A stretch of DNA of 64,000 nt, taken from Callorhinchus milii (taxonomy: Eukaryota). Position numbers: made by a program. The stretch spans positions 26,660,001-26,724,000 of the forward strand of contig NW_024704748.1 in assembly GCF_018977255.1 (NCBI RefSeq). Reading direction: 5' to 3'. Shown here piece by piece: positions 33,201 to 53,800 of the stretch (within the stretch, counting starts at the first letter, position 1; every line of letters starts with the position of its first letter).

Positions 33201-35817
33201 ATAAATAGCAGCAACATCTTGATGTTTGGCCTAAAGTAATAATATCCCTTATATTTAAGTAGATGTTTGTTAGGTCAAGGTATTAAGGGATATGGGCCAA
33301 GGGCGGGTAACTGGACTTGAGGTACAGATCAACCATGATCTTATAGAGTGGTGGGACAGCCTTGTTGGGCTGAATAGCCTACTCCTGTTTCTATTTGGTA
33401 CAGGGCCATTCATGTCAGGAGGATGTCTCAGAGCCCTTCACAGGAAAATCTGCTGTATGCGCACAATTTTTCATCTAAAACGTACATTGAGCTGATTTCA
33501 TTTTATCAGTTTTCTGTTCTGGGGCATTGAAATCCGAGTGGGGGAAAAAAAAGAGAGATGGGATTCCCTCGAACTGTAAAAATATGCCACGTTTGCAAGG
33601 AATGAGAAGGAGACATTTCGACCTCTTCTCCAAGCCTCAGGGCAACTGGAGAATGATTGAGAATATCCTGGCGATAGTCAAGGAGCAGGGATAAGTACGG
33701 TATTGGACCTGGGTTTGATTCCCGGGCAGGGTAAAACATTGGGCAAGTTTCCTTACTCCACACGCCTCTGTTTATCTAGCAGTAAGTAGGAACTTGGTTG
33801 TTACTCGATTCGCGGATCACGTTTTGGGGGTAATAATCCCTTCAAAAGTAATAAAAAGAAGAATTTGATCACTCACAACTGTTGTGGGACACCGCTGTGT
33901 GCGATTGGTTACCACATTTCGCCCACAAAACATCCAGTCGATTCACTTTACACTATATGCTGTGAAGCGCTTTGAGACGTCTCAAGGACATAGTAATGTT
34001 CTACATCAAATGCGAGGATTATTATTATTGTTTCATGAGTGTTCCTTATCAAATTTCAGCCCCAAAGAATTGTTTTCCTCGCAGAAGAAGGGCATTCAGC
34101 CCAGCATGTCTGTGCTTCTCCGACCTGTCACTCTTTTAATTCTTTCTAAGTCACTCTTTTATTTTATTTATTTGTCCTACTTTCCAGCTCTGTATCTCTG
34201 TATCCACAAGTTGTGTGGTTTTAGCTGCTTAGACTCCAGTGTTGAGGTGTGTTGCGCATTCCATTCCAACAATCTATCTCTGGGATTTCCTCTGTTATCC
34301 TCTGATAGTGTTATTGTAATAATAATAATCCTTGCATTTGATGCAGCGCCTTATCTCGTCTTCGAGGCGTCTCAAAGCGCTTCACAGAACATACTGCAAA
34401 GTGGACTGACTGTGTATTTTGTGGGCAAAACAAAATAATAAATAAAGACTTTAATGTCTTAGGTTAGTCAACGTTTGGTGAAGGGCTAGATTTCTGTATG
34501 TGTGACTCACTCCCTCTCCCCTTTACTCGCACTTAATATTGAGCTGCTCTGAAGTACCATGTCTGGTGATCACTGTTGCTGTTAAACAGCACTTAGTCCC
34601 CGTGATGTGACCTGAGCTCACGTGTTCGAAACTCTTTCTAAAACCAAACACTGGGGTTGGAAAAAGTGCTGGTCAGAAGAACTGCAGTGTAAATGGTGCC
34701 TTGCCTTGGGGGAAAAAAATGCATCTCCACATACTTCAAACCAATCCGCGAGATCTCGGACCAGGCAAACCTTTTGATCGGAGCCGAAATCTTGTCGATT
34801 GATGAGCTGTCAACTGTAGCAGATGCAATTTGCGTCCCAAGACGCTTTTTTTCTGGCTCAAAGTACCCTTTTACGCTGCTGTTTTCCCACCAAGCATTCT
34901 TTTCAACTCCAAGGTTATGGACCAGTGTTACCTCTTGCTGGCTCAAGAACACAAAGCTAAATGGGTCTTCAATATGAGAGCGTCACGTAATTTACTTTGG
35001 CGGAATCTTCAGAGGGTCAAAAAGTATCTCTGCCCAACGTCCTCAATGAAGACCTGTATGTGAGTATGTGCGTCGTTAAGGACTGTACTGAACTTATTGC
35101 AAAACATGCAATTAATTAAGGAGCGATAAGATTCACATAAAGGCATTTTCTTTCAAAACAAGATTGAGAAGCTTAGCTTTGGGGAAAAAAAACAGAGGAT
35201 AGGAACCATCAAATAGTGAGTAGCTGATGCTCAGCTTGTGTCTGTAGATTTGAGGAGGAGAGAACGACTGAGGCAGGGAAGGAATTCAAGTCCTTCTGAA
35301 ATCTCTGAGAGTGAATGATTCTCAGTTTTTCAACACAGAGAGAGGATGCACGATCGTGGAAGTGTGTGAAAGACGAGGTATTTGGAGCAAATGGGAAACA
35401 AATGGGGAACTTCCAGAGGAGGAACTACCATCATAGAGATAGAGAAAGAAAGAGGCTGCAAACTAGTGATTAGAGATGTCTCGCTGATCCAATGATAAGG
35501 TTTTCTGCTATCCCAAGTCAAATCTGCCTTGTCAAATCTATTGAGTTCAAGCTGCAGAAATTCAGCTTAATCTGGAAAGCAAACTGGTTAGGCTGCCTCT
35601 GAATACTGAGTACAATCTGACCATCACAACTAAGGGGCCTTAGAAGCAACGCAAATGAGAGGAATAAGGGTAAACCTCAGTGTTCGTGTTGGGTTACGAG
35701 AGCAACAACAACTTGCACTTATATAGCGCCCTCCATGGCAGGGGAGCATCTCAGAGCGCTTAACAGTGGCAGAGCCTGACTAGAACGACGAGATAGGTAA
35801 GCAGGATACACCCCTCC

Positions 35818-35850
<33 letters not shown>

Positions 35851-50800: not shown

Positions 50801-53800
50801 ACAGGTTCCGGGAGCAAGTCCCAAATTCTCACCACCCCTTGCGTGAAGAAGTTCGTCCTAAACTCCCTTTAGATCTGCCACTGCCTATTATCTTACACAA
50901 TAATAATAATAATAATCCTTGCATTTGATACAGCGCCTCATTTTGGATTCATCTATTTTTGGAGTGGGATTCCCTCATGTCGTAATGAAATGCCCGACAG
51001 GTTATCAGAAGATTCCTTTCGGATTCCTTGACCAAGAAATACTGCGAAACCTAACCCCTTGTTAAATAGGAAGACGCCTCTCCAATCGACACTGCTGGAA
51101 GAGAATTATTGAAAGTAACTGTAGTCGCCGAAAACAGTGAGTTGCCCAAACTGTTCGGTGCTGCTGAAAATTAGCCGTCCATTTCTCATTGAAATACGCT
51201 GGAACTGGATCCTGGAACTGTATTTCATGTTTTTTTTTGCCCAGCCGGGTGTCTGACACACGCGGAAACCCATCACCGTTGCTTAAGAGTCTCCAAACCG
51301 AGCTGAGAATTCCACGCGTCCCACCTACACACGGAAACCCCAGAGAGAGATTGTTGGAATGGAATGCGCTCTCTCTCTCTCTCTCTCTGGAGGGGTGTAT
51401 CCTGCTTACCTATCTCGTCGTTCTAGTCAGGCTCTGCCACTGTTAAGCGCTCTGAGATGCTACCCTGCCATGGAGGGCGCTATATAAGTGCAAGTTGTTG
51501 TTGCTCTCGTAACCCAACACGAACACTGAGGTTTACCCTTATTCCTCTCATTTGCGTTGCTTCTAAGGCCCCTTAGTTGTGATGGTCAGACTGTACTCAG
51601 TATTCAGAGGCAGCCTAACCAGTTTGCTTTCCAGATTAAGCTGAATTTCTGCAGCTTGAACTCAATAGATTTGACAAGTAAGATTTGACTTGGGATAGCA
51701 GAAAACCTTATCATTGGATCAGCGAGACATCTCTAATCACTAGTTTGCAGCCTCTTTCTTTCTCTATCTCTATGATGGTAGTTCCTCCTCTGGAAGTTCC
51801 CCATTTGTTTCCCATTTGCTCCAAATACCTCGTCTTTCACACACTTCCACGATCGTGCATCCTCTCTCTGTGTTGAAAAACTGAGAATCATTCACTCTCA
51901 GAGATTTCAGAAGGACTTGAATTCCTTCCCTGCCTCAGTCGTTCTCTCCTCCTCAAATCTACAGACACAAGCTGAGCATCAGCTACTCACTATTTGATGG
52001 TTCCTATCCTCTGTTTTTTTTCCCCAAAGCTAAGCTTCTCAATCTTGTTTTGAAAGAAAATGCCTTTATGTGAATCTTATCGCTCCTTAATTAATTGCAT
52101 GTTTTGCAATAAGTTCAGTACAGTCCTTAACGACGCACATACTCACATCCAGGTCTTCATTGAGGACGTTGGGCAGAGATACTTTTTGACCCTCTGAAGA
52201 TTCCGCCAAAGTAAATTACGTGACGCTCTCATATTGAAGACCCATTTAGCTTTGTGTTCTTGAGCCAGCAAGAGGTAACACTGGTCCATAACCTTGGAGT
52301 TGAAAAGAATGCTTGGTGGGAAAACAGCAGCGTAAAAGGGTACTTTGAGCCAGAAAAAAAGCGTCTTGGGACGCAAATTGCATCTGCTACAGTTGACAGC
52401 TCATCAATCGACAAGATTTCGGCTCCGATCAAAAGGTTTGCCTGGTCCGAGATCTCGCGGATTGGTTTGAAGTATGTGGAGATGCATTTTTTTCCCCCAA
52501 GGCAAGGCACCATTTACACTGCAGTTCTTCTGACCAGCACTTTTTCCAACCCCAGTGTTTGGTTTTAGAAAGAGTTTCGAACACGTGAGCTCAGGTCACA
52601 TCACGGGGACTAAGTGCTGTTTAACAGCAACAGTGATCACCAGACATGGTACTTCAGAGCAGCTCAATATTAAGTGCGAGTAAAGGGGAGAGGGAGTGAG
52701 TCACACATACAGAAATCTAACCCTTCACCAAACGTTAACTAACCTAAGACATTAAAGTCTTTATTTATTATTTTGTTTTACCCACAAAATACACAGTCAG
52801 TCCACTTTGCAGTATGTTCTGTGAAGCGCTTTGAGACGCCTCAAAGACGAGATAAGGCGCTGCATCAAATGCAAGGATTATTATTATAATAACACTATCA
52901 GAGGATAACAGAGGAAATCCCAGAGATAGATTGTTGGAATGGAATGCGCAACACACCTCAACACTGGAGTCTAAGCAGCTAAAACCACACAACTTGTGGA
53001 TACAGAGATACAGAGCTGGAAAGTAGGACAAATAAATAAAATAAAAGAGTGACTTAGAAAGAGTTAAAAGAGTGACAGGTCGGAGAAGCACAGACATGCT
53101 GGGCTGAATGCCCTTCTTCTGCGAGGAAAACAATTCTTTGGGGCTGAAATTTGATAAGGAACACTCATGAAACAATAATAATAATCCTCGCATTTGATGT
53201 AGAGCATTACTATGTCCTTGAGACGTCTCAAAGCGCTTCATGGGACACTGCTAAGCGCAGGAATGGGACTGAATTGGAAGCTCTTTTTGAAAACCCAGCA
53301 CAGACAAGATGGGCCGAATGGCCTCCTTCTGTGCTGCTTAATTCTATGATTCTATGATTTATTTTGGTTTTCCTGAAAATCAATCATTCACCAATCTTTC
53401 CATCAGGATGCATCTAACAAGAAAATGCAGTTGAGAGAGCATTTTCTGGCCAGCTAACTGTTAAGGGTTAACAAACTGAGTGGGAAGAAGAACAATAACA
53501 ACAGCGTTTATATAACATCCCTCTCACAGGATAGTGTCCCAGAGAACTCAAGAAATTACAGTCTTAACAATGTTAAGATAAAGCAATTTGATGTTGATTT
53601 CCCAAGGTTGCACTGCAAGTGTGAAATTCTGGTCAAACCAACAAATATGTAACAATAATAATCCTTGCATTTGAGATAGAGCCTTATCACGTCTTCGAGA
53701 CGTCTCAAAGCGCTTCACAGGATATACTGTAAAGTGAATTGACTGTATATTTTGTGGGCGTATCACAGCAGCCAATTGTGCACAGCAGCGTCCCACAAAC

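What the first reader, a model, noticed from the sequence alone, without database searches (positions are those of the whole stretch)
33963..53240. CASP7 catalytic exons sit in a potentially invertible 5 kb cassette between two head-on 7.1 kb half-genes
Seen: the arms 33963-41096 and 46113-53240 are near-identical inverted repeats. The inner breakpoint lies in the intron between the SHG exon and the QACRG exon, so the spacer (41097-46112) holds exactly the catalytic-Cys exon, the last exon and the 3'UTR. Known: long near-identical inverted repeats mediate inversion of the intervening DNA by non-allelic homologous recombination. Inference: a flip would cut the canonical MEDTD-start gene off from its Cys exon and complete the minus-strand copy, whose only possible start is the candidate alternative exon. 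This would be a germline or somatic orientation switch between two caspase-7 forms.
Basis: partly seen in the sequence, partly recalled or inferred. Interest (0 to 1): 0.78.

Follow-up and report, generated by a model that had tools for sequence, protein, structure and literature searches.

The report
Inverted partial duplicate beside a caspase-7 gene
A caspase-7 gene of a shark-like vertebrate carries, just past its end, a young back-to-front copy of its middle three coding exons; the copy looks like a dead-end duplicate, and nothing shows it to be a switch.

Summary
Arms 33963-41096 and 46113-53240 are one inverted repeat: 7164 aligned columns, 39 substitutions, 12 indels, sharp ends with no N. 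The plus strand carries a complete six-exon caspase-7 gene. Its best named matches are shark and ray caspase-7 at 86%, so it is not human. Arm A holds coding exons 2-4. The 5016-nt spacer holds exon 5 (ACRG), exon 6 and the downstream sequence. Arm B holds identical minus-strand copies of exons 2-4 only.

Arm B is the derived copy. It cuts a SINE that is whole in arm A and it splits another SINE at its insertion site. Ten of 39 substitutions lie at CpG (p=4e-5), so the differences are real mutations and not read errors.

The most likely reading is a recent inverted dispersed duplication that left a copy lacking the start exon and the Cys exon. A flip would break the canonical gene and leave the other copy without its start exon. 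The "alternative exon" has no support. Orientation and copy number cannot be tested without reads. An assembly artefact is less likely but not excluded.

The parts
33963..41096 (+). Arm A (source copy): the last 3816 nt of intron 1, exons 2-4 with introns 2-3, and the first 561 nt of intron 4 of the caspase-7 gene
41097..46112 (+). Single-copy spacer (5016 nt): the rest of intron 4, exon 5, intron 5, exon 6 with the stop codon, and 3522 nt downstream including poly(A)-signal-like hexamers
46113..53240 (-). Arm B (derived inverted copy of arm A), inserted into a SINE
25277..25389 (+). First coding exon (MEDTD... start; donor GT at 25390); lies outside the duplication and is present once
37779..37933 (+). 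Coding exon 2 (KKKTKDHEQ...NKNFDAKT)
39450..39578 (+). Coding exon 3 (MNVRNGTD...)
40360..40535 (+). Coding exon 4 (contains LLSHG; ends ...KPKLFFIQ, phase 0)
41648..41783 (+). Coding exon 5 (starts ACRG, holds the catalytic Cys); single copy, in the spacer
42358..42590 (+). Coding exon 6 with stop codon TAA at 42588-42590; single copy, in the spacer
49279..49433 (-). Copy of exon 2 in arm B, identical, AG/GT kept
47636..47764 (-). Copy of exon 3 in arm B, identical, AG/GT kept
46679..46854 (-). Copy of exon 4 in arm B, identical, AG/GT kept
33705..34032 (+). tRNA-derived SINE that runs unbroken across the outer end of arm A; in arm B only its tail (profile positions 232-297 of 298) is present, cut at 53240
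46008..46112 (+). Left part of the SINE copy that arm B splits (head region, matches four other copies in the window)
53241..53264 (+). Right continuation of the split SINE (core motif) directly after arm B
   Evidence: 0 of 1000 shuffles; one search was not significant
34917..35059 (+). No support as an exon
53260..53356 (+). Repeat fragment 'E2', 75% similar over 97 nt, in inverted orientation, to 40943-41037 near the inner end of arm A; lies 19 nt beyond the insertion site

Best explanation
This is a real and evolutionarily recent inverted dispersed duplication inside one caspase-7 locus of a non-human vertebrate, most likely a cartilaginous fish. A 7.1-kb piece of the gene (the end of intron 1 through exons 2-4 into intron 4) was copied and placed back-to-front into a SINE 3.5 kb past the stop codon, 5016 nt from its source. 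The canonical gene (six coding exons, 939 nt by summing exon lengths) remains intact on the plus strand. The copy on the minus strand lacks the start exon, any recognisable promoter, the catalytic-Cys exon and the small-subunit exon, so as assembled it is a dead-end partial duplicate. Both junctions are blunt, with no target-site duplication and no microhomology. This points to non-homologous joining of a copied fragment or to a two-step replication template switch (inferred). By its architecture the arm pair is a substrate for non-allelic homologous recombination and gene conversion. An inversion of the spacer is therefore possible, but it would split the canonical gene. A second working form is not shown. 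Shown here: the structure, the direction of copying and the intact exons. Inferred: the mechanism of formation, the age, and the lack of function of the copy.
For: Structure. Gene identity was tested exon by exon. Exons 3-6 hit Pfam Peptidase_C14 (E 4.7e-9, 7.8e-16, 1.3e-6, 9.6e-18). Exon 6 matches human caspase-7 chains at 4.8e-35, against 6e-28 for zebrafish caspase-3a, the first caspase-3 chain listed. Exon 2 matches caspase-7 at 7.3e-9. The best named database hits are caspase-7 of Scyliorhinus canicula, Stegostoma tigrinum, S. torazame and Hypanus sabinus at 86% identity. All six exons have AG/GT borders and compatible phases. Direction of copying: the SINE at 33705-34032 is continuous across the outer end of arm A, whereas arm B holds only profile positions 232-297 of 298 of it (E 2.2e-18), cut at 53240. 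The 24 nt after arm B fall on the same SINE core motif in 11 of 15 copies, directly after the segment that resembles the last 22 nt of the spacer. The mean best match is 14.6 of 24, against 12.2 for shuffled probes (maximum 14.07), and 0 of 1000 shuffles reach it. So arm B is an insertion that splits one SINE with about 5 nt or fewer lost. The differences are real mutations: 10 of 39 substitutions lie at CpG (8 of them transitions) against 5.6% of bases, p=4.3e-5, and the indels are mostly microsatellite or homopolymer slippage. No N lies at or between the junctions, and the junction sequences share no overlap that an assembler could have joined through. Arm B carries only exons 2-4, and no further caspase-like exon lies downstream. 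None of 110 ORFs of at least 45 aa in 53241-64000 has a Pfam match.
Against: No reads are available, so copy number and depth are unknown. The 0.55% substitution divergence is also what two haplotypes could show. There are zero differences in 460 exon nt where 3.3 are expected (P=0.037). That fits alleles of one constrained gene, or gene conversion, somewhat better than a decaying pseudogene. The window has N runs elsewhere and one single N inside each arm, so assembly quality is uncertain. The first continuity test against only four SINE copies was not significant (98-200 of 300 shuffles reached the score). The profile built did not detect the spacer end or the 24-nt piece. The orientation of the spacer in the assembly cannot be verified, because only reads longer than an arm can phase it.
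Confidence: 0.72

Rival explanations
1. Assembly artefact: arm B is the second haplotype of arm A (a heterotype false duplication) or a chimeric join, and the genome has only one copy.
For: The divergence of 0.55% with a CpG-biased, germline-like spectrum is compatible with allelic variation. The exons are identical (P=0.037 for 0 events). N runs and single Ns occur in the window. False duplications on the same scaffold are documented in vertebrate assemblies (PMC9516828, passages read).
Against: The hallmarks listed in PMC9516828 include gaps between the duplicated pair, but here all four ends are gap-free. The two arm-B junctions join non-homologous positions (SINE head to an unrelated repeat; SINE tail to SINE core) with no shared sequence for an overlap or k-mer graph to walk through. 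The copy sits as a clean insertion inside one SINE whose two halves continue on either side. That would need two concordant chimeric joins at the same site. Read depth and read-pair tests could not be done.
Confidence: 0.17
2. One reading: the spacer flips in the germline or soma and switches between a canonical caspase-7 and a second form that starts at an alternative exon inside the arm.
For: The geometry is correct. Arms of 7.1 kb at 99.45% identity with a 5-kb spacer lie within the range of inverted repeats that mediate recurrent inversions in humans and apes (inversions of 5.1-226 kb; signs of recurrence in 11 of 16; PMC3961182). The uneven spread of differences, with a 1139-nt event-free tract (P=0.0077), is compatible with exchange between the arms.
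Against: The alternative exon has no homologue and no domain, no CpG-rich window lies inside the arms, and it is one of three chance-like candidates. Because it lies in both arms it would be present in both orientations, so a flip changes only which copy is complete. The canonical promoter and start exon would be cut off from the Cys exon, which makes a null allele of the main form. No recombinase-type machinery is implied. Recombination between such repeats is rare and unregulated (established knowledge). Only one orientation is seen in the window.
Confidence: 0.04
3. Arm B is functional in another way. Read-through or antisense transcription of the inverted copy could give long double-stranded RNA or antisense RNA against caspase-7, or the copy could encode a Cys-less large-subunit fragment that acts as a decoy.
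For: The exon copies and their splice sites are intact and identical. The two half-genes converge on the spacer, so any minus-strand transcript of arm B would run antisense through exons 6 and 5 (geometry). A CpG-rich stretch lies at 56401-56900, 3.2 kb beyond arm B.
Against: There is no evidence of transcription. No start exon is present. None of 110 downstream ORFs has a Pfam match. Poly(A)-signal-like hexamers lie between the stop codon and arm B. The youth of the copy explains the intact exons without invoking selection.
Confidence: 0.05

Closest known systems
[quoted passage not shown]
   Same: Two long, highly identical inverted copies flank a kb-scale unique segment. Such pairs recombine and invert recurrently, and some cut or exchange gene parts.
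   Different: Here only one orientation is seen and no population data exist. The arms are parts of one gene, so an inversion would split that gene rather than only relocate it.
Fold-back inverted duplications with a single-copy spacer (PMC3907307, passages read: spacers 766-70,466 bp, median 3,428 bp, in all 21 sequenced junctions)
   Same: An inverted copy is separated from its source by a kb-scale unduplicated spacer (5016 nt here).
   Different: Those events are megabase-scale, end in terminal deletions, translocations or rings, and mostly show 2-8 bp or repeat-length inverted homology at the spacer/duplication junction. Here the copy is 7.1 kb and interstitial. The chromosome resumes inside the same SINE, and the junction has 0 nt of microhomology.
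Heterotype false duplications in vertebrate assemblies (PMC9516828, passages read)
   Same: A near-identical second copy of part of a gene lies next to the gene, at haplotype-like divergence.
   Different: There is no gap between the copies. The junctions are non-homologous and gap-free, and the copy is a clean insertion in a SINE. Depth and read-pair criteria could not be tested.
Caspase-7 of elasmobranchs (named NCBI records of Scyliorhinus canicula, Stegostoma tigrinum, S. torazame and Hypanus sabinus)
   Same: The exon content and motifs (LLSHG, QACRG, GSWF) are the same. Identity is 86% in the last exon and 57-87% exon by exon by tblastn.
   Different: None of the four proteins matches the arm region upstream of exon 2. 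Whether those species carry the partial inverted copy could not be checked, because no eukaryotic genome collection was available.
Arm-spacer-arm palindromes of sex chromosomes, kept alike by arm-to-arm gene conversion (recalled; only a search listing was seen)
   Same: The architecture is arm-spacer-arm with near-identical arms. A long difference-free tract is compatible with conversion.
   Different: This one is much smaller. The arms carry only a gene fragment, and there is no evidence of long-term maintenance.

Membership tests
Caspase-7 (peptidase C14A effector caspase) | Caspase domain across the large and small subunits | tested here: met
   Exons 3, 4, 5 and 6 each hit PF00656 above its cut-off and cover profile positions 18-233 of 233 in order. 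The test was made exon by exon; the joined protein was not built.
Caspase-7 (peptidase C14A effector caspase) | Catalytic His (SHG) and Cys (QACRG) motifs | tested here: met
   LLSHG lies in exon 4. The Q is the last codon of exon 4 and ACRG opens exon 5. The motif names are general knowledge.
Caspase-7 (peptidase C14A effector caspase) | Closer to caspase-7 than to caspase-3 or -6 | tested here: met
   Exon 6: caspase-7 at 4.8e-35, against 6e-28 for the first caspase-3 chain listed. Exon 2: 7.3e-9 against 4.8e-5. The top named hits are all caspase-7.
Inverted-repeat-mediated invertible segment (recombination-driven inversion polymorphism) | Long, highly identical inverted repeats flanking a unique segment | tested here: met
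   Arms of 7134 and 7128 nt, 99.45% identity at aligned letters, 5016-nt spacer.
Inverted-repeat-mediated invertible segment (recombination-driven inversion polymorphism) | Both orientations observed in individuals or cells | not testable with these tools
   No reads, no second assembly and no eukaryotic genome collection were available.
Fold-back inverted duplication | Single-copy spacer of about 0.8-70 kb between source and inverted copy | tested here: met
   The spacer is 5016 nt; the range comes from PMC3907307.
Fold-back inverted duplication | [quoted passage not shown] | tested here: not met
   [quoted passage not shown] A 97-nt, 75% inverted homeology (E/E2) lies 19-153 nt from the breakpoints but not at the junction.
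Fold-back inverted duplication | Loss or replacement of the chromosome distal to the break | tested here: not met
   The sequence after arm B continues the same SINE that arm B interrupts.
Heterotype false duplication (assembly artefact) | Assembly gap between or beside the duplicated pair | tested here: not met
   N runs lie at 10538-10763, 22712-23019 and 23039-23206. There are single Ns at 39435 and 46857 inside the arms and none at a junction.
Heterotype false duplication (assembly artefact) | Half read depth, 1-copy k-mers and discordant read pairs | not testable with these tools
   No read data were available.

The most novel reading that the evidence does not exclude
The arm-spacer-arm structure is a segregating or somatically recurring flip that toggles this caspase-7 gene between an intact state and a split state. 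In the split state the canonical promoter makes only a Cys-less large-subunit fragment, and exons 2-6 sit behind arm B under a different start. The result would be a structural on/off or isoform polymorphism of an executioner caspase, built from a single recent duplication.
Probability: 0.07. Interest if true: 0.6.

Novelty: new member of a known kind. Interest (0 to 1): 0.27.

Why it matters
If real, this is a cleanly resolved and young example of how a partial inverted duplicate arises next to its parent gene in a vertebrate, with source, insertion site and both junctions readable. It would also create an inversion-prone architecture around the catalytic exons of an executioner caspase. For annotation, arm B can produce a false 'caspase-7-like' partial gene model. 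For assembly quality control, it is a locus where spacer orientation and copy number need long-read confirmation. It does not by itself reveal a new mechanism.

Tried and rejected
(1) I tested continuity of the spacer end and the post-arm-B sequence against only four 'F-type' SINE copies. The result was not significant: 98-200 of 300 shuffles reached the score. A profile of 15 SINE copies did not detect the spacer end, the post-arm-B piece or the arm-B start at E<=100. The ungapped 24-nt probe test over all 15 copies then gave the signal.

(2) I considered the E/E2 inverted homeology (75% over 97 nt) as the primer of a fold-back. I rejected it as the junction mechanism because E2 stays intact beyond arm B and the junction lies outside it. 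E-like fragments occur at about four other independent places in the window, so its nearness is only weakly notable.

(3) I looked for homology support for the 'alternative exon' and found none in Pfam, in tblastn with four shark or ray isoforms or in the protein collection. The last is weak evidence, because this species' own proteins do not seem to be in the collection: the best hit to exon 6 is 86%.

(4) I looked for a gene or promoter that could drive arm B. None of 110 ORFs in 53241-64000 has a Pfam hit, and only one CpG-rich stretch lies there, at 56401-56900.

(5) A literature search for 'caspase-7' with 'inverted duplication' returned one paper, unrelated by its title and abstract start (search listing only).

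(6) The Rfam scan returned only 12 tRNA-like matches, which are the SINE heads.

(7) Not done: the joined six-exon coding sequence or protein was never assembled, translated, searched or folded. All searches were exon by exon, and the 313-codon length is a sum of exon lengths. The N positions were not filled or compared. No eukaryotic genome collection exists here, so orthologous loci stayed unchecked. Supplementary files of the papers were not consulted.
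Full report
WHAT IS THERE

The repeat finder tiles the two arms with nine inverted pairs of 99-100% complementarity. blastn gives one HSP, 33963-41096 against 53240-46113: 98.53% over 7164 columns, 39 mismatches, 18 gap openings. A MAFFT alignment gives 39 substitutions (22 transitions, 17 transversions), 12 indel events totalling 66 nt, and two single-N sites that I left uncompared. 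Homology ends abruptly at all four ends. The N runs of the window lie elsewhere (10538-10763, 22712-23019, 23039-23206), apart from one single N inside each arm at non-homologous positions. I did not fill them.

THE GENE

All gene work was done exon by exon. The joined coding sequence or protein was never built, translated or searched, and the length below is a sum of exon lengths.

On the plus strand there are six coding exons with AG/GT borders and compatible phases:
- exon 1, 25277-25389 (MEDTD... start)
- exon 2, 37779-37933
- exon 3, 39450-39578
- exon 4, 40360-40535 (LLSHG; ends ...FIQ)
- exon 5, 41648-41783 (starts ACRG)
- exon 6, 42358-42587, followed by TAA

Together these make 939 nt.

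- Pfam: exons 3-6 each hit Peptidase_C14, in order along the profile. Exons 1 and 2 hit nothing above cut-off.
- Solved structures: exon 6 matches human caspase-7 chains at 4.8e-35, against 6e-28 for zebrafish caspase-3a, the first caspase-3 chain listed. Exon 2 matches caspase-7 at 7.3e-9.
- Protein collection: the best named hits to exon 6 are caspase-7 of three sharks and a ray, at 86% identity over 100% of the exon. No hit is identical.

Together with twelve tRNA-like Rfam matches that are SINE heads, this says the window is a non-human vertebrate, most likely a cartilaginous fish. I do not take it for human.

WHAT THE ARMS HOLD

- Arm A begins 3816 nt before exon 2, inside intron 1, and ends 561 nt into intron 4.
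- Arm B carries copies of exons 2, 3 and 4 on the minus strand (49279-49433, 47636-47764, 46679-46854). They are identical to the originals and keep AG and GT.
- tblastn with four shark or ray caspase-7 proteins finds the six exons, the three copies, and nothing else caspase-like except a small fragment noted below.
- The start exon lies 8.6 kb outside arm A and exists once. Exons 5 and 6 lie in the spacer and exist once.

One correction: the Q of QACRG belongs to exon 4.

WHICH COPY IS THE ORIGINAL

- Outer end. In arm A a tRNA-derived SINE (33705-34032) runs unbroken across the outer breakpoint. In arm B only its tail is present, profile positions 232-297 of 298, cut at 53240.
- Insertion site. 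The last about 100 nt of the spacer (46008-46112) are the head of another SINE copy.
- A test of whether the sequence after arm B continues that SINE was not significant when run against only four related copies. The mixed profile did not see it either.
- With an ungapped 24-nt probe against all 15 SINE copies used, the best match falls on the same core motif in 11 of 15 copies, directly after the segment that resembles the last 22 nt of the spacer. The mean best match is 14.6 of 24 against 12.2 for shuffled probes, and 0 of 1000 shuffles reach it.

So arm B is an insertion that splits one SINE, with at most about 5 nt lost. There is no target-site duplication and no microhomology at either junction.

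REAL OR ARTEFACT

- The differences are biological. Ten of 39 substitutions lie at CpG (8 transitions) against 5.6% of bases, p=4.3e-5. The indels are mostly microsatellite or homopolymer changes or small tandem duplications. This rules out a copy made of read errors.
- A haplotype mistaken for a paralogue remains possible. The 0.55% divergence is compatible with that. The exons show 0 differences where 3.3 are expected (P=0.037).
- The hallmarks of such false duplications are half depth, gaps between the copies and discordant read pairs (PMC9516828, passages read). The only one I can test, gaps, is not met.
- Both arm-B junctions join non-homologous positions without shared sequence, and the flanks of arm B are two halves of one SINE. 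An artefact would need two concordant chimeric joins.

I put a real duplication at about 0.7-0.8 and an artefact at about 0.17.

HOW IT FORMED (INFERRED)

The arm-spacer-arm layout with a 5-kb spacer resembles fold-back inverted duplications. In those, all 21 sequenced junctions had a single-copy spacer of 766-70,466 bp, median 3,428 bp (PMC3907307, passages read). Two defining features fail here:
- There is no inverted microhomology at the spacer/copy junction.
- The chromosome resumes at the same site, with no loss of its distal part.

Non-homologous joining of a copied 7.1-kb fragment into a nearby break, or a two-switch replication event, fits better.

A 97-nt fragment (53260-53356) that is 75% similar, in inverted orientation, to 40943-41037 sits 19 nt beyond the insertion site. 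It may have brought the sites together. Similar fragments occur at about four other places in the window, so I do not lean on it.

With an assumed neutral rate of 1e-9 per site per year (not from any call), 0.55% divergence corresponds to about 3 million years. Gene conversion would make it look younger.

THE SWITCH IDEA

- Inverted repeats of this kind do mediate recurrent inversions. In the human set, inversions of 5.1-226 kb were validated and 11 of 16 showed signs of recurrence, including one with 7-kb repeats (PMC3961182, passages read).
- The uneven spread of differences between the arms is compatible with conversion. There is a 1139-nt event-free tract at 37462-38601 (P=0.0077), and 16 of the 51 events fall in 38963-39962.
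- So a flip is physically plausible. Its outcome would be a canonical promoter and start exon joined to exons 2-4 with no Cys exon, while exons 2-6 sit on the other strand without the start exon.
- The proposed rescue, an alternative first exon at 34917-35059, is one of three in-phase ATG-ORF-plus-donor candidates in the arm. It has no domain, no match to shark or ray isoforms and no homologue (weak evidence, because this species seems absent from the collection). No CpG-rich window lies within the arms.
- It is not the only possible start, since exon 2 has in-frame ATGs.
- Downstream of arm B, 0 of 110 ORFs have a Pfam match.

I therefore rate the regulated or functional switch at about 0.04, and a segregating on/off inversion as the boldest reading not excluded at about 0.07.

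WHAT IS KNOWN AND WHAT STAYED UNCHECKED

A full-text search for 'caspase-7' with 'inverted duplication' found one unrelated paper (listing only). I found no report of this structure, but the kind of structure (partial inverted segmental duplication, inverted-repeat-flanked segment) is well known.

Unchecked:
- reads, depth and spacer orientation
- orthologous loci, because no eukaryotic genome collection is available
- the closed metagenome and viral collections
- supplementary files of the papers

VERDICT

The most likely explanation is an ordinary but neatly resolved young inverted partial gene duplication. Interest is modest.

Noticed in passing
window 16550-17407: GC-rich minisatellite of 47 copies of an 18-nt unit (ACCCCGCCCCCGCCCAGG). 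It accounts for the 0.64 GC peak upstream of the gene. Further CpG-rich stretches at 19751-20500, 22001-22500 and 23451-24200 (interrupted by N runs) may hold the promoter and a non-coding first exon, since the MEDTD exon has an acceptor-like AG just upstream of its ATG.
   Followed up: partly
window 43615-43655: A 41-nt piece of exon 6 (42419-42459) is repeated at 97.6% identity about 1.2 kb downstream, in the same orientation, directly abutting a SINE fragment. This is a second small templated copy in the same locus.
   Followed up: partly
window 39200-39322 (arm A) / 47895-48029 (arm B): Differences between the arms cluster here: 5 of the 12 indels and 7 of the 39 substitutions fall within about 120 nt, inside a repeat-like element. 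They include a 14-nt tandem duplication present only in arm B, at 47928-47957.
   Followed up: partly
window 39435 and 46857: There is one single N in each arm, at non-homologous positions. Both lie in T-runs just upstream of splice acceptors (exon 3 in arm A, the exon 4 copy in arm B). They were left unfilled and uncompared.
   Followed up: no
whole window: The window is dense with one tRNA-derived SINE family ending in an ATT-rich tail: 48 blastn hits to one copy and 12 Rfam tRNA matches. A variant has a different head (57364-57660, 28872-29110, 11856-12130, 29415-29720).
   Followed up: partly
window 53260-53356 vs 40943-41037: A short inverted homeology (75% over 97 nt) flanked the spacer before the duplication, 59-153 nt and 19-115 nt from the two breakpoints. 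It may have helped bring the sites together, but it is not at the junction.
   Followed up: partly
window 56401-56900: This is the only CpG-rich stretch downstream of arm B. The ORFs there have no Pfam match, and what it is remains unknown.
   Followed up: no
window 23884-24028: A tandem repeat of 45-46 nt, about 3 copies, C/T-rich, lies just after the N runs and upstream of the start exon.
   Followed up: no
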